A DNA stretch of 64,000 nt from the NCBI RefSeq assembly GCF_003790525.1, contig NZ_CP033635.1. One strand, 5' to 3'. The stretch is from Escherichia coli (GTDB lineage Bacteria; Pseudomonadota; Gammaproteobacteria; Enterobacterales; Enterobacteriaceae). A model generated the notes under the pieces. The model saw only the letters and a list, made by a program, of their open reading frames with translations. It did not search any database and was not told the DNA's origin. Shown piece by piece: positions 516-27,856 of this stretch; positions within the stretch are counted from its first letter, which is position 1, and the number at the start of each line of letters is the position of its first letter. The position numbers were made by a program, and so were the translations under genes.

Positions 516-574
516 GTTGGATCCTTACCGGTAAATCGTGCCGGTTAAAAGCGGCGTGAAGATGGGGAATCTTA

Positions 575-925
<351 letters not shown>

Positions 926-6637: not shown

Positions 6638-7068
6638 CAGGCTTCTCCCAGTTTCAGCAGGCTTTGCTGCATACTTTTCACGTTGTTGAGCACATCGACG
6701 TTAGTTTCAAAATCGCGCGAGGCCGACATCATGTCCGCCATCTGTTCCACCACGTTGACGTCGGGATACCAGACATCCCCGTTAGCATCGGCGAGCGGCG
6801 AATGTGGTTCATAGCGTTTCACCGCCCCGCCGGTTTGCAGCACGTCCTGCACCTGCACACTGGCACCGTCAATGGCATGACGATGTGTACCCGCCAGCAA
6901 ACTGTGGTGATACACCGCCGCAAACACCGGGCTGCGCGCTTTATATGCCTGCGCCTCGCTGCTGGCGGGCGCATTAGCATTCGCCAGGTTACTGGCGACG
7001 GTATTCAGACGTAGCGTTTGCGCCGTCATCGCCGAGCCGGAAATCTGATAGATATCAGTAAATGACAT
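6637..7068 (-). CDS. lfgC: Flagellar rod protein FlgC
   Basis: 143 aa; FlgC-like; reading frame intact. Confidence 0.92.
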   Translation of the reverse strand: MSFTDIYQISGSAMTAQTLRLNTVASNLANANAPASSEAQAYKARSPVFAAVYHHSLLAGTHRHAIDGASVQVQDVLQTGGAVKRYEPHSPLADANGDVWYPDVNVVEQMADMMSASRDFETNVDVLNNVKSMQQSLLKLGEA

Positions 7069-7070
7069 GC

Positions 7071-7406
7071 TTATTTCCCTTCAATGGCCTCTCTGATGCC
7101 GCTGATTTGCAGATTCAGAAAGGTCAGACTGCTTTGATAATCCATACTATTTTGTGAAAACCGCGCCTGCTCGCTGTTCAGCTCCACGGTGTTGCCATCT
7201 TCCGACGGCTGCATCGGCACGCGGTACTGGACATCCACCGCCGCGTTATTTGCCCGTTGCATCTCCCTGGCAAAATCAATATCTTTAGCCTTGAAATTTG
7301 GCGTATCGACGTTCGCCAGATTCGCAGTCAGTAGCTCGGTCCTCTCAAGACGTAACTTCACTGCCTGCGGATGCACTCCCAATGCCTGTTGAAAACTGAT
7401 CCCCAT
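7071..7406 (-). CDS. lfgB: Flagellar rod protein FlgB (start moved to ATG at 7406; ORF track start 7436 lies inside the predicted promoter)
   Basis: N-terminus from MGISFQQ... aligns with FlgB; LTANLANVDTPNFKAKDIDF motif. Confidence 0.85.
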   Translation of the reverse strand: MGISFQQALGVHPQAVKLRLERTELLTANLANVDTPNFKAKDIDFAREMQRANNAAVDVQYRVPMQPSEDGNTVELNSEQARFSQNSMDYQSSLTFLNLQISGIREAIEGK

Positions 7407-7443
7407 TTCTTGCGTCACTCCCGCTTCAATCCGCATACGCTAA

Positions 7444-7458
7444 GCAATCGCTGTGCCA
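7444..7458 (-). promoter_or_regulatory. Sigma-54 type promoter (-24 TGGCAC / -12 TTGC) for the lfgB-J operon
   Basis: Plus strand gcaatcgctgtgcca is the reverse complement of TGGCAC-AGCGA-TTGC, about 35-50 nt upstream of the lfgB start. Confidence 0.6.
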
Positions 7459-7487
7459 ATTTTTAAGTGACTGATGAGAAAGGGTTT

Positions 7488-8225
7488 ATGAGTTTTCAAT
7501 TTTGCAGGCGGAAGTTTTATTTCCTCCTGGCGCTGGCCTTACCGGGCTACGCCGCCGTCCATCCCGTGCAACATAGCGCGCGGGAACAAATCAACGCCCA
7601 GGTACTGAATACCGCGAGCCAAAAAATTGAATCGCTGGCGCAGCAGCGGCAATGGCATGACTATCGCTACACCTTTAAGGTCTATATTCCGTCGCAGATT
7701 GCGACCGCCGCGCCCTGTACAACGTCACCCGGCGTCACGCTGACGTCGCCTGCGGAAATCGCCCTTAACCGGATGAACTTCACCGTCAGTTGCCCGCAAA
7801 GCTGGCAGATGAACGTCGCGGTGCGCCCGGATGTTCTGGTACCGGTGGTGATGGCAAAGTCACTGGTTGCCCGCGATACGCCGCTCACGGCAAATGATGT
7901 GGAGCTGAAGCCCTACAACGTCAGCGCCCAGCGTCGCGATGTGTTGATGGAGCTCGATGACGCAATTGGTTTAAGCAGTAAGCACGCGTTGCAACCGGGC
8001 AGACCAATCACCAAAGAAGAGCTGGTTTCGCCAGTGCTGGTCGAACGCGATCAGCCGGTGATGATTGTTTACCAGAGCGCGGGGATCACCGCCTCGATGC
8101 CCGGCGTGGCGCTGAAAAATGGTCGCAAAGGGGAAATGGTGAAAGTACGTAACGTCAGCAGCCAGCGGGTCATTAGCGCGAGGGTGGCGGAAAGCGGCGT
8201 GGTGACAACGGTAAGCGCGGAGTAA
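7488..8225 (+). CDS. lfgA: Flagellar P-ring assembly chaperone FlgA (ATG at 7488; ORF track GTG at 7467)
   Basis: Signal peptide FYFLLALALPGYAA; FlgA-like C-terminal domain; divergent from lfgB. Confidence 0.85.
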   Translation: MSFQFCRRKFYFLLALALPGYAAVHPVQHSAREQINAQVLNTASQKIESLAQQRQWHDYRYTFKVYIPSQIATAAPCTTSPGVTLTSPAEIALNRMNFTVSCPQSWQMNVAVRPDVLVPVVMAKSLVARDTPLTANDVELKPYNVSAQRRDVLMELDDAIGLSSKHALQPGRPITKEELVSPVLVERDQPVMIVYQSAGITASMPGVALKNGRKGEMVKVRNVSSQRVISARVAESGVVTTVSAE

Positions 8226-8239
8226 TTTGCGCAGGCGAT

Positions 8240-8267
8240 TAAAGTTTTGCCGCCTGTTAACCGCTTT
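8240..8267 (+). promoter_or_regulatory. Possible sigma-28 class promoter (-35 TAAAGTTT, weak -10) upstream of lfgM
   Basis: Perfect TAAAGTTT at 8240-8247; downstream -10 region matches GCCGATAA only partially. Confidence 0.3.
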
Positions 8268-8304
8268 ACCGGAGTAACCCACCCAATACCGAGACGAGGT
8301 TACG

Positions 8305-8583
8305 ATGAAAATCACCCCGACGATGCCAGGCAATCGCCCGACAGCCACAATGGCAGGCTCCAGTCAGCCGCGCAAAAGCACGGCGACCACCGCCACGACG
8401 CTGAGCGCCGACGACATTACCCAGGCGGGATTGCAGTCTGCCCAGCAAACGCTGAACGACCAGCAAGAGAGCGATATCGACAGCGACAAAGTGGCGCAAA
8501 TGCAAGCGATGCTGGCGTCCGGCAGCCTGCAAGTGGACACCGAACAGTTAGCCAGCGACATGCTGAGTTTTTTCCAGAACTAA
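8305..8583 (+). CDS. lfgM: Anti-sigma-28 factor FlgM
   Basis: 92 aa; FlgM-like C-terminal region. Confidence 0.8.
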   Translation: MKITPTMPGNRPTATMAGSSQPRKSTATTATTLSADDITQAGLQSAQQTLNDQQESDIDSDKVAQMQAMLASGSLQVDTEQLASDMLSFFQN

Positions 8584-8595
8584 GAGGCCGATGAA

Positions 8596-9024
8596 GTGAG
8601 TATCCGGTTACAACAGGTGAAGGCGTTGTTGCAGGGCATTCGTGACGACGACGCACTGTACGATTCCCTGCGCGAACTTCTCCAGCGTCAGCGGATGTGC
8701 ATGATTCGCCGCGCCAGCGAAGATCTGCTGGCGGTAAACGACGAGATAACGCAGCACTATGAGCAGTTGCATGGGCATAGCCATCAGCGGCACAGCCTGC
8801 TGAAAATGCTTAATGTCAGTGTAAATCGTGACGGTCTGGCGCAGGTTTTTGCCTGGCTTCCGGCTGTGCAAAAAGCAGCAGCACAACAGTTGTGGCAACG
8901 CCTTGAGCAAAAAGCGGAACGCTGCAAAGCCTACAACGACAAAAACGGCGAGCTGTTGATTCGCCAGTATGAATTTATTCAGTCTTTTTTAGGCGGCGAA
9001 ACAGATTTTCTGTACCAGGAATAA
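8596..9024 (+). CDS. lfgN: Flagellar export chaperone FlgN (GTG start)
   Basis: 142 aa; FlgN-like; follows lfgM. Confidence 0.75.
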   Translation: MSIRLQQVKALLQGIRDDDALYDSLRELLQRQRMCMIRRASEDLLAVNDEITQHYEQLHGHSHQRHSLLKMLNVSVNRDGLAQVFAWLPAVQKAAAQQLWQRLEQKAERCKAYNDKNGELLIRQYEFIQSFLGGETDFLYQE

Positions 9025-9101
9025 CGACAATTCCTTCCCCCATCGCGGAAACGGATTTTCCGCCTGATTCTCAATCCCTTGTTTTTGATTACAAAAATTC
9101 C

Positions 9102-9117
9102 CGGCACGCTTATTGCA
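9102..9117 (+). promoter_or_regulatory. Sigma-54 promoter (cGGCACG-N4-TTGCA) driving the variable-region operon
   Basis: cggcacgcttattgca matches the -24/-12 consensus TGGCACG-N4-TTGCW at all positions but the first. Confidence 0.7.
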
Positions 9118-9151
9118 CATTCCGCAAAGTAATAAAGACTGGAAGCCACCT

Positions 9152-10081
9152 ATGAGTTTTATTGAACGTTACGAACCGGAATACGTGCGCAATTTTATGA
9201 CGCAATATCCCGATTCGCCTTTGTACGTCCGCAAGGTCTGGAAGAATGAGATTCGCCAGAGCCTGGCATTGACCGATATTGAAAGTTGCAAAGCGGTGCT
9301 CAACGATGCCAGGGCCTTTGATTTACAGCTCACCTACCGCCCTGTGGAAGACAATGCCGCCGAGCTATCCGCGCGCGATGCGATAGTAAACCAGGCCATT
9401 TTGAGCACCCTTACGCTCCCCGATTTAACCCCGGAGCTTTCCCTGTATGCCGTCGGGATTTTGCTCTCCCGCGCCAGTAAAATGCCGGGCAGAGACGGAG
9501 ATATTCTTGCCCGCTTGACGACGCTGCCACAGGCGCTGGGGGATCATGCACAAAAAGGCACGCTACAGGCACAGTTCGCCCAACTCCCACCCGTGCCACA
9601 ACTGGCGCGCCAACTGGTGACGCTGCTCGGGAGTTTTGCGTTTGACTGGTCGATTTTGCCGGAAAGCCCGCGCAAAGCCTCGCTACCGTTGCAGGTGACT
9701 TTGCTGACGTTGCATGACGCCAACAGCGAAGCTTTGTTGCAACAGCAGCTTAAGGTGCAGTGGCAAACCACCTGGCAACAGCATTTTGCCGCCGCGCCGT
9801 GGATGATGCGCAACTGGCTGATTTACCGCGTTTATCACGACGTGATTGGGCAGGCAGACGGAGCAGATTATTGCCCGCTGGTGTGTGATTTTTATCTCAT
9901 CCGCACGTTAATCAGTTTATGGACGCTGGATGGTTCACCGCTGCGGAAGGAGGATATTTTCGCCCTTTTTGCGGTGTTTGAACGCTGGCGAGAGAGTGAA
10001 AATGCTGCGGCGATTCGCCAGCAGCTCCAGTCGTTATGTGCGGCAGAGCCGCTGCTGTCAGCATTTTCGCTGCTGACGTGA
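9152..10081 (+). CDS. Hypothetical protein, Flag-2 variable region (ATG at 9152; ORF track TTG at 9113 overlaps the promoter)
   Basis: ~310 aa ORF downstream of the sigma-54 promoter; no family recognised. Confidence 0.6.
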   Translation: MSFIERYEPEYVRNFMTQYPDSPLYVRKVWKNEIRQSLALTDIESCKAVLNDARAFDLQLTYRPVEDNAAELSARDAIVNQAILSTLTLPDLTPELSLYAVGILLSRASKMPGRDGDILARLTTLPQALGDHAQKGTLQAQFAQLPPVPQLARQLVTLLGSFAFDWSILPESPRKASLPLQVTLLTLHDANSEALLQQQLKVQWQTTWQQHFAAAPWMMRNWLIYRVYHDVIGQADGADYCPLVCDFYLIRTLISLWTLDGSPLRKEDIFALFAVFERWRESENAAAIRQQLQSLCAAEPLLSAFSLLT

Positions 10082-10089
10082 GTCGCTCT

Positions 10090-10215
10090 GTGCGCGCTTT
10101 TCCCCTCCCCCTAACCCTCTCCCCAAAGGGGCGAGGGAACCGATCGAGCACGGTGTTAAAATCGGCGCTGGTTTTCTCCCTCTCCCTGTGGGAGAGGGTC
10201 GGGGTGAGGGCATCA
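10090..10215. repeat. GC-rich imperfect-palindrome repeat (boxC-like: ccctctcccc...gggagaggg)
   Basis: Related copies at 21405-21455 and 31840-31885. Confidence 0.5.
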
Positions 10216-10259
10216 GCACGCATATTCATCACATTCACCCATTAACTCACCCAAACACC

Positions 10260-12704
10260 ATGCCAACACCAACCATTATCAAAACACTCGCCACCCAGCG
10301 CGAAAAACCGTCCGTCAGCGTCATCACGCCAACCTGGAACCGCAGCGCATTCCTGCCGTACCTGCTTTATATGTACCGCTATCAGGACTACCCGGCAGAC
10401 CGCCGCGAACTCATCATCCTCGACGATTCCCCTCAAAGCCATCAACACATCATCGACCGCCTGACCAATGGCACACCGGAAGCCTTCAACATCCGCTACA
10501 TCCATCACCCGGAAAAACTGCCGCTGGGCAAAAAACGCAATATGCTCAACGAACTGGCGCGCGGCGAATACATCCTCTGCATGGACGATGACGACTACTA
10601 CCCGGCAGATAAAATCTCTTACACCATCGCTATGATGCAAAAAAACCGGGCGCTCATCTCCGGTTCCGACCAGATCCCCATCTGGTACAGCCACATCAAT
10701 CGCATCTTTCAAAGCCGCAGCTTCGGCCCGCATAACATCCTCAACGGCACCTTTTGCTATCACCGTAACTACCTGAAAAAGCACCGCTACGATGACGATT
10801 GCAATTTAGGCGAAGAGAAAAGTTTCACCGACAATTTCAGCGTTAACCCGCTACAACTGCCCGGCGAGCGCACGATTTTGTGTATCTCGCACAGCCACAA
10901 CACCTTTGATAAAGACTTTATTCTCGGGGCCAGCACGCCAGTAAACGCGACGCTTACGGATATCGTCCGCGATCCGCTGCTCCGCAATGCTTATCTGAGT
11001 CTGCATAACGCCACTCATCATCAGGCGATCCAGTATCAGGCGATCGATCAGATCGTTCTGCTGAATCTGGATAAACGCCCGGATCGCTTACAGCAGATCC
11101 GTGAAGAACTCACATTGCTGCATATTCCTCCTGAGAAGATCACCCGCCTTGCCGCCAGTGAAAATGAAAACGGTCAACGGGGCCGCCAGCAATCACACTT
11201 GCAGGCACTGCGTCTGGCGCAACAACGCGGCTGGCAAAACTACCTGCTGCTGGAAGATGACGCGGTTATTCTCAAACAGGAGAAACATATTCAGGTGCTG
11301 AACGCGCTGCTGGCGAGCCTGGCGAAAATTCCCTGGCAGGTGATGATCCTCGGCGGCGAAATTTCGCAGGGAACGATGCTAAAAAGTTTGCCTGGGCTGG
11401 TGCACGCGCGGGACTGCCGCAAAGTGTGCGCTTATCTGGTGAACCGCCGCTACTACCCGCAGCTGGCGCAGCAGATGAACAACGATGAGCATTCGCTGGA
11501 AGACGGCTGGCAGCCGCTGCTGCGCACCGACAAATGGCTGGCCTGTTACCCGAGCCTTTGTTATCAGCGACCGGGCTTTAGTGATATCGAGAAAAAAGCG
11601 ACTGATAACATTAACCACTACTTCAATAAGTTACCCGTAGCCACCAAGCCATCTACATTACCTATCGCCGATACCATCGGCTTTTTTATGGAAACCTCAT
11701 TCCACTACGCGCTCTACCGCCCAATCATCACCGCCCTGCAGGCGCAGGGGCAGAGCTGTACGCTGGTGATCAATGACCGCGTATTTAAACCATTTCTGGA
11801 TGAAATGCTGGCGACGCTAAAAAGCATCGACGATCCGCAGCTCAAAGGAATGCGCTTATCTGAAATGCAGGCACACGGTCAGCGAGTAAAATGCCTGGTC
11901 AGCCCCTATCACACGCCTGTGCTCAGTGGCCTTTCCCCCCTGAACATTCGCGCCATGTACGGCTTAGCCAAAGAAACGTGGAACCACGCCGACTGGAACC
12001 GTTTTTATCAGCGCATTTTGTGTTACAGCCACTACAGCCAGCGGGCGCTGGCACATTTCGGCAGCGCAATAGTGGTCGGCAACCCGCGCTTCGACGCCTG
12101 GCATAACGCCACGTTCGACCGCGCGTTGCCGGAAAATATCAAACTGGACGAGCGTAAACCCACCGTACTCTACGCCCCAACGTTTGGCGCATTAAGCTCC
12201 CTGCCCCACTGGGCAGAAAAATTGGGGCGCTTAAGCGATGATGTGAACCTGATTTGCAAACTGCACCACGGCACCTGCTCGCGCCCGGAAGAAGCTGCAT
12301 CGCTGGCCCTGGCTCGCAGGCATTTAAAACAGCGCACCGACTCCGCCCGTCACACGCTGGCGCTGCTGGCAAAGGCCGATTACGTGCTGACCGATAACAG
12401 CGGCTTTATTTTCGATGCTATTCACGTTGATAAGCGGGTGATCCTGCTCGACTTTCCGGGCATGGCAACGTTGCTCGACGGTGAGAAAAGTTACTCCACG
12501 CCCGAAAGCGCCGACCAGCGAATCCGCGAAATATTGCCGGTGGCTCATGATGTTGCGGAACTGCGTTATTTGTTGTCAGAGGCGTTTGACTGGGGTGCGG
12601 TGCAGGCGCGGCTTACGAAGATTCGTCATCACTATTGCGATGCGTTTATGGATGGCAAGGCGGGAGAACGGGCAGCGATGGTGATTGTGGAGGCACTAGG
12701 GTAA
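10260..12704 (+). CDS. Multidomain transferase: N-terminal GT2 glycosyltransferase, central GT25-like domain, C-terminal TagB/TagF-like CDP-glycerol glycerophosphotransferase domain
   Basis: N-terminal VSVITPTWNR...ILDDSP...MDDDDYY (GT-A/DxD); central LNLDKRPDRL (GT25-like); C-terminal VLYAPTFG...KLHHG...VLTDNSGFIFD (Glyphos_transf-like). ATG at 10260. Confidence 0.7.
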   Translation: MPTPTIIKTLATQREKPSVSVITPTWNRSAFLPYLLYMYRYQDYPADRRELIILDDSPQSHQHIIDRLTNGTPEAFNIRYIHHPEKLPLGKKRNMLNELARGEYILCMDDDDYYPADKISYTIAMMQKNRALISGSDQIPIWYSHINRIFQSRSFGPHNILNGTFCYHRNYLKKHRYDDDCNLGEEKSFTDNFSVNPLQLPGERTILCISHSHNTFDKDFILGASTPVNATLTDIVRDPLLRNAYLSLHNATHHQAIQYQAIDQIVLLNLDKRPDRLQQIREELTLLHIPPEKITRLAASENENGQRGRQQSHLQALRLAQQRGWQNYLLLEDDAVILKQEKHIQVLNALLASLAKIPWQVMILGGEISQGTMLKSLPGLVHARDCRKVCAYLVNRRYYPQLAQQMNNDEHSLEDGWQPLLRTDKWLACYPSLCYQRPGFSDIEKKATDNINHYFNKLPVATKPSTLPIADTIGFFMETSFHYALYRPIITALQAQGQSCTLVINDRVFKPFLDEMLATLKSIDDPQLKGMRLSEMQAHGQRVKCLVSPYHTPVLSGLSPLNIRAMYGLAKETWNHADWNRFYQRILCYSHYSQRALAHFGSAIVVGNPRFDAWHNATFDRALPENIKLDERKPTVLYAPTFGALSSLPHWAEKLGRLSDDVNLICKLHHGTCSRPEEAASLALARRHLKQRTDSARHTLALLAKADYVLTDNSGFIFDAIHVDKRVILLDFPGMATLLDGEKSYSTPESADQRIREILPVAHDVAELRYLLSEAFDWGAVQARLTKIRHHYCDAFMDGKAGERAAMVIVEALG

Positions 12705-25779: not shown

Positions 25780-27856
25780 ATCGTTCCTCGCGCTGCTGCG
25801 CGGCGGCAATCTCGGCGTGCCGCTGGTAATACTGTGTATTCTGGCGATGGTTATTCTGCCGCTGCCGCCTGCGCTGCTGGATATTCTGTTCACCTTCAAC
25901 ATTGTGCTGGCGGTGATGGTGCTGCTGGTGGCGGTGTCGGCGAAAAGGCCGCTGGAATTCAGCCTGTTCCCGACCATTTTGCTGATCACCACTTTAATGC
26001 GCCTGACGCTCAACGTCGCCTCCACGCGCGTGGTGCTGTTACACGGGCATCTCGGCGCGGGCGCGGCGGGTAAGGTAATTGAGTCGTTTGGTCAGGTGGT
26101 GATTGGCGGCAACTTTGTCGTCGGTTTCGTGGTGTTTATCATCCTGATGATCATCAACTTTATCGTCGTCACCAAAGGGGCCGAGCGTATTTCCGAGGTT
26201 TCTGCCCGCTTTACCCTGGACGCGATGCCCGGTAAACAGATGGCGATTGACGCCGATCTTAACGCCGGATTGATCAACCAGGCGCAGGCACAAACCCGGC
26301 GTAAAGATGTTGCCAGCGAGGCCGATTTCTACGGCGCAATGGACGGGGCATCGAAGTTTGTGCGCGGCGATGCCATCGCCGGGATGATGATTCTGGCGAT
26401 CAACCTGATCGGCGGCGTCTGTATCGGGATCTTCAAATACAACCTGAGCGCCGACGCCGCCTTCCAGCAATATGTGCTGATGACTATCGGCGACGGGCTG
26501 GTGGCGCAGATCCCGTCCCTGCTGCTCTCCACCGCGGCGGCAATTATCGTCACCCGCGTCAGCGACAACGGCGATATCGCCCATGACGTGCGCCACCAGC
26601 TGCTGGCAAGTCCGTCGGTGCTCTACACCGCCACCGGGATCATGTTTGTGCTGGCGGTGGTGCCGGGGATGCCGCATCTGCCATTTTTGCTGTTCAGCGC
26701 CCTGCTTGGCTTTACCGGCTGGCGGATGAGCAAACGCCCGCAGGCGGCGGAGGCGGAGGAGAAAAGCCTCGAAACGCTGACCCGAACCATCACCGAAACC
26801 AGCGAGCAACAGGTCAGTTGGGAAACCATTCCGCTGATCGAGCCCATCAGCTTAAGCCTCGGCTACAAGCTGGTGGCGCTGGTGGACAAAGCGCAGGGGA
26901 ACCCGCTCACCCAGCGGATTCGCGGCGTGCGGCAGGTGATATCCGACGGTAACGGCGTGCTGCTGCCGGAGATCCGTATTCGGGAAAACTTCCGTCTCAA
27001 GCCCAGCCAGTACGCCATTTTCATCAACGGCATTAAGGCTGATGAAGCGGATATTCCGGCGGATAAACTGATGGCCCTGCCCTCCAGCGAAACCTACGGC
27101 GAGATTGACGGCGTACTGGGGAATGACCCGGCATATGGGATGCCGGTCACCTGGATTCAGCCTGCGCAGAAAGCGAAGGCGCTGAATATGGGGTATCAGG
27201 TGATCGACAGCGCCAGCGTGATTGCTACCCATGTAAATAAGATTGTGCGCAGCTATATTCCTGATTTATTTAACTATGACGATATTACGCAGTTGCATAA
27301 TCGTTTGTCGTCGATGGCACCGCGACTGGCGGAAGACTTAAGCGCGGCGCTCAATTACAGCCAGTTGCTGAAAGTGTATCGCGCGCTGCTGACCGAAGGC
27401 GTTTCCCTGCGCGATATCGTCACCATCGCCACCGTGCTGGTCGCCAGTAGTGCGGTGACTAAAGATCATATCCTGCTGGCGGCCGATGTGCGCCTGGCGC
27501 TGCGGCGCAGTATCACCCATCCGTTCGTTCGCAAGCAGGAGCTGACGGTGTATACGCTGAATAATGAGCTGGAAAATCTGCTGACCAACGTGGTGAATCA
27601 GGCGCAACAGGCCGGCAAAGTGATGCTCGACAGCGTGCCGGTGGACCCGAATATGCTTAACCAGTTCCAGAACACGATGCCGCAAGTGAAGGAGCAGATG
27701 AAAGCGGCGGGGAAAGACCCTGTGCTGCTGGTGCCACCGCAGTTGCGCCCTTTGCTGGCGCGCTATGCGAGATTGTTTGCGCCGGGGCTGCATGTGCTGT
27801 CGTATAACGAAGTGCCGGACGAGCTGGAGTTGAAGATTATGGGGGCGTTGATGTAG
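25763..27856 (+). CDS. lfhA: Flagellar export apparatus protein FlhA, full length
   Basis: 697 aa; FlhA family (TM domain plus cytoplasmic domain). Confidence 0.95.
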   Translation: MAKTTKSFLALLRGGNLGVPLVILCILAMVILPLPPALLDILFTFNIVLAVMVLLVAVSAKRPLEFSLFPTILLITTLMRLTLNVASTRVVLLHGHLGAGAAGKVIESFGQVVIGGNFVVGFVVFIILMIINFIVVTKGAERISEVSARFTLDAMPGKQMAIDADLNAGLINQAQAQTRRKDVASEADFYGAMDGASKFVRGDAIAGMMILAINLIGGVCIGIFKYNLSADAAFQQYVLMTIGDGLVAQIPSLLLSTAAAIIVTRVSDNGDIAHDVRHQLLASPSVLYTATGIMFVLAVVPGMPHLPFLLFSALLGFTGWRMSKRPQAAEAEEKSLETLTRTITETSEQQVSWETIPLIEPISLSLGYKLVALVDKAQGNPLTQRIRGVRQVISDGNGVLLPEIRIRENFRLKPSQYAIFINGIKADEADIPADKLMALPSSETYGEIDGVLGNDPAYGMPVTWIQPAQKAKALNMGYQVIDSASVIATHVNKIVRSYIPDLFNYDDITQLHNRLSSMAPRLAEDLSAALNYSQLLKVYRALLTEGVSLRDIVTIATVLVASSAVTKDHILLAADVRLALRRSITHPFVRKQELTVYTLNNELENLLTNVVNQAQQAGKVMLDSVPVDPNMLNQFQNTMPQVKEQMKAAGKDPVLLVPPQLRPLLARYARLFAPGLHVLSYNEVPDELELKIMGALM

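What the first reader, a model, noticed from the sequence alone, without database searches (positions are those of the whole stretch)
8240..8267. Possible sigma-28 promoter ahead of lfgM-lfgN
A perfect -35 TAAAGTTT lies about 60 nt upstream of lfgM, but the -10 region matches GCCGATAA only partially. If real, lfgMN would be late-class genes as in the primary flagellar system.
Basis: inference. Interest (0 to 1): 0.3.

Follow-up and report, generated by a model that had tools for sequence, protein, structure and literature searches.

The report
Lateral-flagellar sigma-28 promoter of lfgMN
The flagged site is very probably a real late-class promoter for the anti-sigma factor operon lfgMN of the E. 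coli Flag-2 (lateral flagellar) system, read by the system's own sigma-28 (LafS), whose -10 motif differs from the textbook one; this is expected biology, already shown in related bacteria.

Summary
The window is E. coli SMS-3-5, Flag-2 locus. TAAAGTTT is at 8240-8247, 15 nt after the lfgA stop and 65 nt before the lfgM ATG. After a 12-nt spacer comes ACCGCTTTA (8260-8268).

Against the primary FliA consensus or a real FliA matrix the site is no better than background. It does match a different, strongly conserved bipartite motif: TTAAG/TAAAGwTT-N12-GyCGyTTTw.

A matrix trained only on lfgK and lafA upstream regions of other genera ranks the lfgK promoter first and 8240 second in the window. 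It also picks a site of the same architecture as the best hit between lfgA and lfgN in all 24 Flag-2 loci tested, plus Rahnella and Erwinia; Vibrio campbellii has a related site.

Motif blocks are conserved while spacer and flanks diverge. A conserved TAAC lies where the start site should be (8275-8278).

LafS-type sigmas keep the residues that read GCCG but differ from FliA in the loop that forms the -11 pocket. This fits a -10 with C/T instead of A at -11.

Sigma-28 dependence of flgMN(L) is already published for Vibrio and Plesiomonas. Verdict: real, ordinary, an orthologue of a known promoter. The distinct lateral -10 motif is the only mildly novel part.

The parts
8240..8247 (+). -35 element TAAAGTTT of the lfgMN promoter (TTAAAGTTTT, 8239-8248, in full context)
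   Evidence: Exact sequence. Invariant in 9 Escherichia/Pseudocitrobacter alleles while neighbouring bases vary. The orthologous block is TAAAGTTT or TTAAG(T/A)TT in 21 lineage representatives, at 0.9-1.9 bits per column.
8248..8259 (+). 12-nt spacer tgccgcctgtta
   Evidence: Length is 12 in 22 of 24 lfgM sites (11 in the other two) and in 38 of 38 lfgK/lafA training sites. The sequence is not conserved, at 0.0-0.5 bits after the first base. E. whittamii differs at 6 of 12 positions.
8260..8268 (+). -10 element ACCGCTTTA (lateral type, GyCGyTTTw; C rather than A at the position equivalent to -11)
   Evidence: Invariant across the Escherichia alleles. The CG core carries 1.9 bits across 21 lineages. 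The same element occurs upstream of lfgK and lafA.
8275..8278 (+). Predicted transcription start region, conserved TAAC (start most likely at T8275 or A8276)
   Evidence: A conserved TA(A/C)C lies 7-10 nt after the -10 block in most lineages; the A column carries 1.6 bits against about 0.3 for its neighbours. With GCCGATAA numbered -15 to -8, +1 falls at 8275. This is inferred, not mapped.
8296..8299 (+). Ribosome-binding site GAGG of lfgM
   Evidence: Sequence. ACGAGGTT is conserved upstream of the ATG in most loci.
8305..8583 (+). lfgM, anti-sigma-28 factor of the Flag-2 system
   Evidence: ORF. Pfam PF04316 FlgM, 40.2 bits. RefSeq annotation.
8596..9024 (+). lfgN, FlgN-type export chaperone, co-transcribed with lfgM
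   Evidence: ORF. Pfam PF05130, 69.8 bits. The gap after lfgM is 12 nt.
7488..8225 (+). lfgA, P-ring chaperone; the upstream gene from which read-through into lfgMN is likely
   Evidence: Pfam PF13144, 106.6 bits. No terminator-like structure lies between 8225 and 8305 on the + strand.
547..575 (-). Sister promoter of the same class in front of lfgK: TTAAGATT-N12-GCCGCTTTT
   Evidence: Top hit of the independent matrix in the whole window, score 24.4. It lies 32 nt upstream of the lfgK start at 515 and is conserved in all loci.

Best explanation
The site at 8240-8268 is the class III (late) promoter of the lfgM-lfgN operon of the E. coli Flag-2 lateral-type flagellar system.

RNA polymerase carrying the locus-encoded sigma-28 paralogue LafS, not the primary FliA, recognises three features: a -35 element TAAAGTTT, a 12-nt spacer, and a -10 element ACCGCTTTA. 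Transcription starts at about 8275-8276, giving a leader of roughly 30 nt.

Because LfgM is the anti-sigma factor for LafS, the arrangement forms the usual negative feedback loop. Once the hook-basal body is complete and LfgM is exported, LafS is freed. It then transcribes lfgMN, lfgKL and lafA.

lfgMN is probably also made earlier by read-through from lfgA.

What is shown here: the conservation of the motif, its recurrence at the three expected late operons, and its distinctness from FliA sites.

What is inferred: LafS dependence, the start site, the read-through, and the feedback logic.
For: 1. Independent matrix. A two-block matrix was trained only on lfgK and lafA upstream regions of non-Escherichia loci. 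It ranks the lfgK promoter first and 8240-8268 second in the 64-kb window. In each of 24 Flag-2 loci its best hit between the end of lfgA and the start of lfgN has the same architecture, and in the 20 loci where lfgM could be placed it lies 28-82 nt before the ATG. Local P values are 1e-4 to 1e-2. The Fisher-combined P over 11 lineages is about 1.6e-25.

2. Other families. In Rahnella the two best hits in the 20-kb locus lie upstream of lfgK and lfgM. In Erwinia sorbitola they lie upstream of lfgM and lafA. Vibrio campbellii lateral genes lfgM, lfgK, lafA and lafB carry TTAAT/TAAAT-N12-(G/A)yCGCCTnT.

3. Footprint. Motif columns average 1.42 bits against 0.37 for flanks and spacer (Mann-Whitney P = 1.7e-7). 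Within Escherichia, substitutions and indels fall beside, between and after the two blocks but never inside them. The 101-bp region is 95-99% identical in 1,099 E. coli genomes, while the surrounding 2.2 kb is 90-95% identical in 1,132.

4. Position. The site mirrors the primary system. The E. coli flgM class 3 promoter TAAAGATT-N11-GCCGATAA also begins just after the flgA stop (listed as a FliA ChIP site for flgMN).

5. Sigma factor. LafS is intact. LafS-type sigmas conserve the residues equivalent to Y76, R80, R82, D87, D93 and R97, which contact the GCCG part. They differ clade-wide from FliA in three places: the specificity loop that forms the -11 pocket (RRYG-PDxxF against (K/R)YDAxxGxxF), region 3.0, and the sigma-4.2 recognition helix.

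6. Published regulation. In V. parahaemolyticus flgMN(L), flgKL(L) and lafA are sigma-28 class III genes. [quoted passage not shown] The two V. parahaemolyticus sigma-28 factors are each required for their own system.
Against: There is no transcript or binding data for E. coli Flag-2. Whether the locus is expressed at all in SMS-3-5 is unknown.

The E. coli site scores only 15.9 with the independent matrix. That is within the range of the best chance hit in 64 kb (mean 16.6). The score is lowered by TAAAG in place of TTAAG and by A in place of G at the first -10 position.

The matrix search was seeded with a consensus I read from the E. coli sites. It was not found de novo.

The related sequences are not fully independent, so the combined P value is optimistic.

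The more distant 67% GC loci (L055, L059) show only weaker, related motifs, and there flgM lies in a different operon.

LafS binding to this motif has not been demonstrated in any source I could read.
Confidence: 0.85

Rival explanations
1. The site is a promoter for the primary flagellar sigma factor FliA. That would put the Flag-2 anti-sigma operon under control of the flag-1 system (cross-talk), or under both sigma-28 factors.
For: The -35 TAAAGTTT is identical to the FliA -35 consensus, and only in the Escherichia/Citrobacter clade. The GCCG-like part of the -10 is shared. FliA ChIP-seq shows weak binding at a few sites with C, T or G at -11, such as cvrA GCCGCTAA with a FAT score of 2.
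Against: A matrix from 22 strong FliA sites scores the site -0.5 or -3.3. Genuine sites score at least 5.7, with a median of 17.7. All 22 strong sites have A at -11, the base that is flipped into the sigma-2 pocket. The spacer is 12 nt, not 11. The same non-FliA -10 recurs at lfgK and lafA. In V. parahaemolyticus each sigma-28 is required for its own system.
Confidence: 0.07
2. The site is a chance match with no promoter function, and lfgMN is transcribed only by read-through from the lfgA promoter.
For: TAAAGTTT alone is expected 1.7 times in the window. The site is not window-wide significant by either matrix. No terminator lies between lfgA and lfgM.
Against: Orthologous sites with the same architecture are present in every lineage examined, although spacer and flanks diverge. 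This intergenic stretch is better conserved within E. coli than the flanking genes. In strain 2022H048 the upstream lfgA is replaced by other DNA, yet the promoter-lfgM unit is retained intact.
Confidence: 0.04
3. The conserved blocks serve another purpose. They could be a binding site for a transcription factor (for example LafK or another regulator), or an RNA or DNA hairpin at the 3' end of lfgA (CAGGCG at 8231-8236 pairing with CGCCTG at 8251-8256).
For: A 6-bp inverted repeat brackets the -35 element in SMS-3-5.
Against: The inverted repeat is broken in E. coli MB46 and in E. whittamii while the two blocks stay invariant. No run of T follows it. The bipartite layout, the fixed 12-nt spacing, the GCCG core shared with FliA -10 elements and the conserved start-site motif are all typical of a sigma-70-family promoter. 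So is its recurrence at exactly the operons that are sigma-28-dependent in related species. Sigma-54/LafK-type promoters in the locus look quite different: TGGCAC-N5-TTGC at lfgB and lafB.
Confidence: 0.04

Closest known systems
Class III sigma-28 (FliA-L / LafS)-dependent flgMN(L) promoter of lateral flagellar systems (Vibrio parahaemolyticus, Aeromonas hydrophila, Plesiomonas shigelloides)
   Same: It drives the orthologous operon (anti-sigma factor plus FlgN chaperone) downstream of flgA(L), in the same gene order. The same companion late operons, flgKL(L) and lafA, carry the motif. V. campbellii has a site of the same architecture 41 nt before lfgM.
   Different: The host is E. coli, where Flag-2 expression has not been demonstrated in any source I could read. 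The -35 is TAAAG rather than TTAAG or TTAAT. The -10 tail is CTTT in enterics against CCTnT in Vibrio. No experimental data exist for this copy.
Primary (flag-1) flgM class 3 promoter of E. coli and Salmonella, FliA-dependent, TAAAGATT-N11-GCCGATAA
   Same: It occupies the same position, starting a few nt after the flgA stop, about 45 nt before the flgM ATG. The logic is the same: the anti-sigma gene is transcribed by the sigma it inhibits, in addition to transcription from upstream. The TAAAG -35 and the GCCG part of the -10 are shared.
   Different: The -10 continues CTTT instead of ATAA, so there is no A at -11. The spacer is 12 nt rather than 11. A true FliA matrix scores the site as background. 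The cognate sigma is a paralogue only 36.6% identical over the aligned 86% of LafS, with a different specificity loop.
Canonical sigma-28 promoter class (TAAAGTTT-N11-GCCGATAA), as seen in the E. coli and P. aeruginosa sigma-28 open-complex structures
   Same: It has a bipartite -35/-10 layout with an extended -10 GC and a CG core. The sigma residues that contact those bases are conserved in LafS.
   Different: The flipped non-template base A-11 is replaced by C or T in every lateral site I collected: the 38 lfgK/lafA training sites and 21 lfgM representatives, the Rahnella and Erwinia sites, the four V. campbellii sites and the four weak sites in L055/L059. The pocket-forming loop of LafS differs, and is one residue shorter in the non-Vibrio sequences.

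Membership tests
Sigma-28 (FliA) consensus promoters, TAAAGTTT-N11-GCCGATAA | -35 element TAAAG(T/A)TT | tested here: met
   TAAAGTTT at 8240-8247, 8 of 8.
Sigma-28 (FliA) consensus promoters, TAAAGTTT-N11-GCCGATAA | -10 element GCCGATAA with A at -11 (the flipped base) | tested here: not met
   ACCGCTTT gives 4 of 8, with C at the -11 position. All 22 strong E. coli FliA ChIP sites have A there. The role of A-11 is described.
Sigma-28 (FliA) consensus promoters, TAAAGTTT-N11-GCCGATAA | 11-nt spacer between the 8-mers, and a matrix score in the range of real sites | tested here: not met
   The spacer is 12 nt. The FliA matrix score is -0.5 or -3.3, against at least 5.7 for real strong sites.
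Lateral (LafS / FliA-L type) late promoters, as defined here: T(T/A)AAGwTT-N12-GyCGyTTTw | Both blocks present with a 12-nt spacer | tested here: met
   TAAAGTTT-N12-ACCGCTTTA. It scores 15.9 with a matrix trained on other genes and other genera, second best in the window. It deviates from the training consensus at two positions.
Lateral (LafS / FliA-L type) late promoters, as defined here: T(T/A)AAGwTT-N12-GyCGyTTTw | Located upstream of an operon that is late-class in characterised lateral systems, and conserved in orthologous loci | tested here: met
   flgMN(L) is sigma-28-dependent in Vibrio and Plesiomonas. A site of the same architecture is the best hit between lfgA and lfgN in 24 of 24 loci, and sites are also present in Rahnella, Erwinia and V. 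campbellii.
Lateral (LafS / FliA-L type) late promoters, as defined here: T(T/A)AAGwTT-N12-GyCGyTTTw | Transcription depends on LafS and starts 7-9 nt after the -10 | not testable with these tools
   This needs 5' end mapping and a lafS mutant or in vitro transcription. The only support here is a conserved TAAC at the predicted start.
Sigma-54 (LafK-dependent, class II) promoters of the Flag-2 locus | TGGCAC-N5-TTGC(A/T) at -24/-12 | tested here: not met
   No such element lies between 8226 and 8304. Clear examples exist at 7443-7458 (-) for lfgB, at 9102 (+), and upstream of lafB.
Sigma-70 housekeeping promoters | TTGACA-N16-18-TATAAT-like hexamers | tested here: not met
   The consensus scan of 7000-10300 found none in the lfgA-lfgM intergenic region.

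The most novel reading that the evidence does not exclude
LafS-type sigma-28 factors of lateral (Flag-2-like) flagellar systems define a separate promoter class: TTAAG-N15-GyCGyyT. It has one extra spacer base pair and a pyrimidine where every canonical sigma-28 promoter has the flipped A at -11. A remodelled specificity loop (RRYG-PDxxF) reads it.

This difference would insulate the late regulons of two flagellar systems that coexist in one cell. The E. coli lfgM promoter, with a FliA-type -35 and a LafS-type -10, could be a point of limited cross-talk.

I could not establish whether this consensus was already stated in the primary papers on Vibrio, Aeromonas or E. coli Flag-2, because none of them was accessible.
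Probability: 0.55. Interest if true: 0.5.

Novelty: new member of a known kind. Interest (0 to 1): 0.3.

Why it matters
For annotation, the result fixes the regulatory class of lfgMN in the enterobacterial Flag-2 locus. Combined with the lfgK and lafA sites, and the sigma-54 sites at lfgB and lafB, it gives a nearly complete promoter map of a system present in about a quarter of complete E. coli genomes. That system's expression conditions are still unknown.

More generally, scanning secondary flagellar loci with the textbook FliA consensus will miss or under-rate their late promoters. The lateral motif derived here works much better.

If the pyrimidine at -11 and the altered LafS specificity loop are confirmed, they would explain mechanistically why paralogous sigma-28 factors in one cell do not cross-activate. 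They would also provide a natural specificity variant for structural work on group 3 sigma factors.

Tried and rejected
1. Judging the site by the FliA consensus or a FliA ChIP-derived matrix. It is indistinguishable from background, so that route can neither confirm nor explain it.

2. Window-wide significance with the lateral matrix. The score of 15.9 lies within the null maximum, so the argument rests on orthology, not on the single score.

3. A hairpin or terminator at the lfgA 3' end. The inverted repeat is not conserved and no T-tract follows.

4. A sigma-54 promoter for lfgM or lfgA. None was found on that strand. The lfgA promoter itself remains unidentified.

5. Retrieving the primary papers: Stewart & McCarter 2003, Ren et al. 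2005, Canals et al. 2006 and Wilhelms et al. 2013. None is held. Full-text searches for a stated lateral sigma-28 consensus found nothing.

6. Reaching Vibrio or Aeromonas through the protein searches. The word-index search returned only Enterobacterales. The 50% representatives mostly sat on short metagenomic contigs or belonged to other flagellar types (L060). The route that worked was V. campbellii chromosome II, filed as a plasmid in PLSDB.

7. The 67% GC lateral-like loci L055 and L059 gave only weak, related motifs with a different gene order, so I did not use them for statistics.

Full report
**Source and context.** The window is 100% identical to E. coli SMS-3-5 (NC_010498.1), in reverse orientation. 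It covers part of the Flag-2 (lateral-type) flagellar locus. Around the finding, lfgE-D-C-B lie on the minus strand. On the plus strand lie lfgA (7488-8225), lfgM (8305-8583) and lfgN (8596-9024). Pfam confirms FlgA, FlgM and FlgN. The locus also encodes its own sigma-28 paralogue LafS. It lies outside the window at L001 39950-40669 and has intact sigma-70 regions 2 and 4. No gene of the cluster is flagged as a pseudogene in RefSeq.

**The observation.** TAAAGTTT is at 8240-8247, 15 nt after the lfgA stop and 65 nt before the lfgM ATG. With the canonical 11-nt spacer the -10 is poor. With 12 nt it reads ACCGCTTT, 4 of 8 against GCCGATAA.

Taken alone it is unremarkable:
- The octamer is expected 1.7 times per window.
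- About 20 other window sites match the two-block FliA consensus as well.
- A matrix built from the 22 strongest FliA ChIP-seq sites of E. coli (Table 2 of PMC4183435) scores the site -0.5 or -3.3. Genuine strong sites score 5.7-27.2, and roughly 800-1,700 window positions do as well or better than the site.

**What changed the picture.** Upstream of the two other operons expected to be late, the same genome has TTAAGATT-N12-GCCGCTTT (lfgK) and TTAAGTTT-N11-GTCGTTTT (lafA). The 'partial' -10 of lfgM therefore resembles a recurrent, different -10.

I fetched 29 Flag-2 loci from other species through LfgK: Escherichia, Pseudocitrobacter, Citrobacter, Phytobacter, Leminorella, Enterobacter and Mangrovibacter. 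Upstream regions of lfgM, lfgK and lafA all show a bipartite motif, T(T/A)AAGwTT-N12-GyCGyTTTw, embedded in otherwise divergent DNA.

**Independent test.** I trained a two-block matrix only on lfgK and lafA sites of non-Escherichia loci. All 38 training sites had a 12-nt spacer. I then scanned the window blind.
- The top hit is the lfgK promoter at 547-575 (-), score 24.4.
- The second is 8240-8268, score 15.9.
- 15.9 is not window-wide significant, since the null maximum averages 16.6. The site loses points for TAAAG instead of TTAAG and for A instead of G at the first -10 base.
- In each of the 24 loci that contain lfgA and lfgN, the best hit between them has the same architecture, with scores of 13.5-25.0. 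In the 20 loci where lfgM could be placed it lies 28-82 nt before the ATG. Local P values are 1e-4 to 1e-2. The Fisher combination over 11 lineages gives about 1.6e-25, which is optimistic because the lineages are related.
- In Rahnella the two best hits of the 20-kb locus lie upstream of lfgK and lfgM. In Erwinia sorbitola they lie upstream of lfgM and lafA.

**Footprint.** Anchored on the motif, the two blocks average 1.42 bits per column across 21 lineage representatives. Flanks and spacer average 0.37 (P = 1.7e-7). A conserved TA(A/C)C follows 7-10 nt after the -10 block, at window 8275-8278. That is where +1 falls if the -10 is numbered like GCCGATAA, -15 to -8.

Within Escherichia, variation sits just upstream of the -35, in the spacer, just after the -10 and in the leader. 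E. whittamii changes 6 of 12 spacer bases. CGATTAAAGTTTTGCC and ACCGCTTTAC are invariant.

The 101-bp region is 95-99% identical in 1,099 E. coli genomes. The surrounding 2.2 kb is 90-95% identical in 1,132.

A 6-bp inverted repeat around the -35 in SMS-3-5 is broken in other alleles, so a hairpin is not the conserved feature. No terminator lies between lfgA and lfgM.

**Beyond the Enterobacterales, and contrast with the primary system.** Vibrio campbellii chromosome II carries a lateral system whose LfgC is 61.5% identical. Its sites are:

| Gene | Site |
|---|---|
| lfgM | TTAATGTT-N12-GTCGCCTAT |
| lfgK | TTAATCCC-N12-GTCGCCTCT |
| lafA | TTAATCAT-N12-ACCGCCTCT |
| lafB | TAAATCTT-N12-GTCGCCTTT |

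E. coli primary promoters read TAAAGATT-N11-GCCGATAA (flgM, starting just after the flgA stop), TCAAGTCC-N11-GCCGATAA (flgK), and likewise for fliC, fliD and fliA.

The lateral class therefore keeps GCCG. It has C or T where canonical promoters have A-11, and it has one more spacer base pair.

**Mechanistic plausibility.** In the P. aeruginosa sigma-28 open complex, non-template A-11 is flipped out, stacks on Y76 and sits in a pocket made by the specificity loop (K64, D66, S72). R80 and D87 read -12 and -13. R97 reads the extended -10.

Aligning LafS to the solved FliA chains, and aligning LafS orthologues from E. coli to Vibrio, gives two results:
- Y76, R80, R82, D87, D93 and R97 are conserved.
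- The specificity loop is clade-specifically different: RRYG-PDxxF against (K/R)YDAxxGxxF, one residue shorter in the non-Vibrio sequences. Region 3.0 also differs (RQ against (R/H)R). So does the sigma-4.2 helix (ARICQLNK against SRVSQLHS), including the S224 position that contacts the -35.

This fits an altered -11 and -35 preference, but it is inference only.

**What is already known.** Reviews and primary papers I could read state that in V. parahaemolyticus flgAMN(L) is LafK/sigma-54 class II, while flgMN(L), flgKL(L) and lafA are sigma-28 class III. [quoted passage not shown] Each V. parahaemolyticus sigma-28 is needed for its own system.

The regulatory idea is therefore established for orthologous systems. 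Here it is extended to E. coli Flag-2 by sequence evidence. I could not access the primary Vibrio, Aeromonas or E. coli Flag-2 papers. I cannot say whether the lateral-specific -10 consensus has been printed before, and full-text searches found no statement of it.

**Verdict.** It is very likely the LafS-dependent late promoter of lfgMN, with a probable start at 8275-8276. It probably acts in addition to read-through from lfgA. It is not a FliA-type promoter.

It is a new member of a known kind and of modest interest. The mildly novel by-product is the distinct lateral sigma-28 promoter motif and the matching sigma signature. Remaining uncertainties are the absence of any expression data for this locus, the unidentified lfgA promoter, and the seeded derivation of the matrix.

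Noticed in passing
window 547-575 (- strand): This is the strongest lateral-type sigma-28 site in the window: TTAAGATT-N12-GCCGCTTTT. It lies 32 nt upstream of the lfgK start (515), and the gene runs off the window start. It follows a 420-nt REP-rich lfgJ-lfgK spacer.
   Followed up: yes
window 7443-7458 (- strand): A sigma-54-type promoter TGGCACAGCGATTGCT lies in front of lfgB and is conserved in all 13 Flag-2 loci checked. It fills most of the 81-nt lfgB-lfgA divergent region. No sigma-54 site was found on the lfgA strand, so the lfgA promoter is unidentified. A conserved TTTTTAAGTGAcTGATGAGAAAGG sits just before the lfgA start.
   Followed up: partly
window 9102-9117 (+ strand): A sigma-54-like element CGGCACGCTTATTGCA lies between lfgN and the hypothetical gene at 9152-10081. 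That gene has no Pfam match. Glycosyltransferase and FliB_C-like genes occupy this variable region in Rahnella and Erwinia.
   Followed up: no
L001 36303-36318 (outside the window; upstream of lafB/fliD): In E. coli, lafB is preceded by a near-perfect sigma-54 promoter TGGCACGCCTTTTGCC rather than a LafS-type site. In V. campbellii, lafB has a LafS-type site. Operon control therefore seems to differ between lineages.
   Followed up: partly
window 26302-26329 (+ strand), inside lfhA: This is the best match in the window to the real FliA matrix: TAAAGATGTTGCCAGCGAGGCCGATTTC, score 19.1, within the range of genuine FliA ChIP sites. It is intragenic and on the sense strand of the Flag-2 flhA homologue.
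   Followed up: no
L069 (E. coli 2022H048) 300-381, aligned to window 8236-8315: In this strain the DNA upstream of the lfgM promoter, including lfgA, is replaced by unrelated sequence next to a type II restriction endonuclease gene. The breakpoint lies immediately upstream of the -35 element, and the promoter-lfgM-lfgN unit is retained.
   Followed up: partly
L001 39950-40669 (LafS) and orthologues in L009-L063: There is a clade-wide LafS signature relative to FliA: specificity loop RRYG-PDxxF, RQ in region 3.0, and ARICQLNK in region 4.2. It is conserved from E. coli to Vibrio campbellii and in two 67% GC metagenomic lateral-like loci.
   Followed up: partly
window ~10000-10240 and L001 30110-30450: Clusters of REP-like palindromic repeats lie inside the Flag-2 locus, between the hypothetical gene and the glycosyltransferase, and between lfgJ and lfgK. 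They differ between E. coli strains.
   Followed up: no
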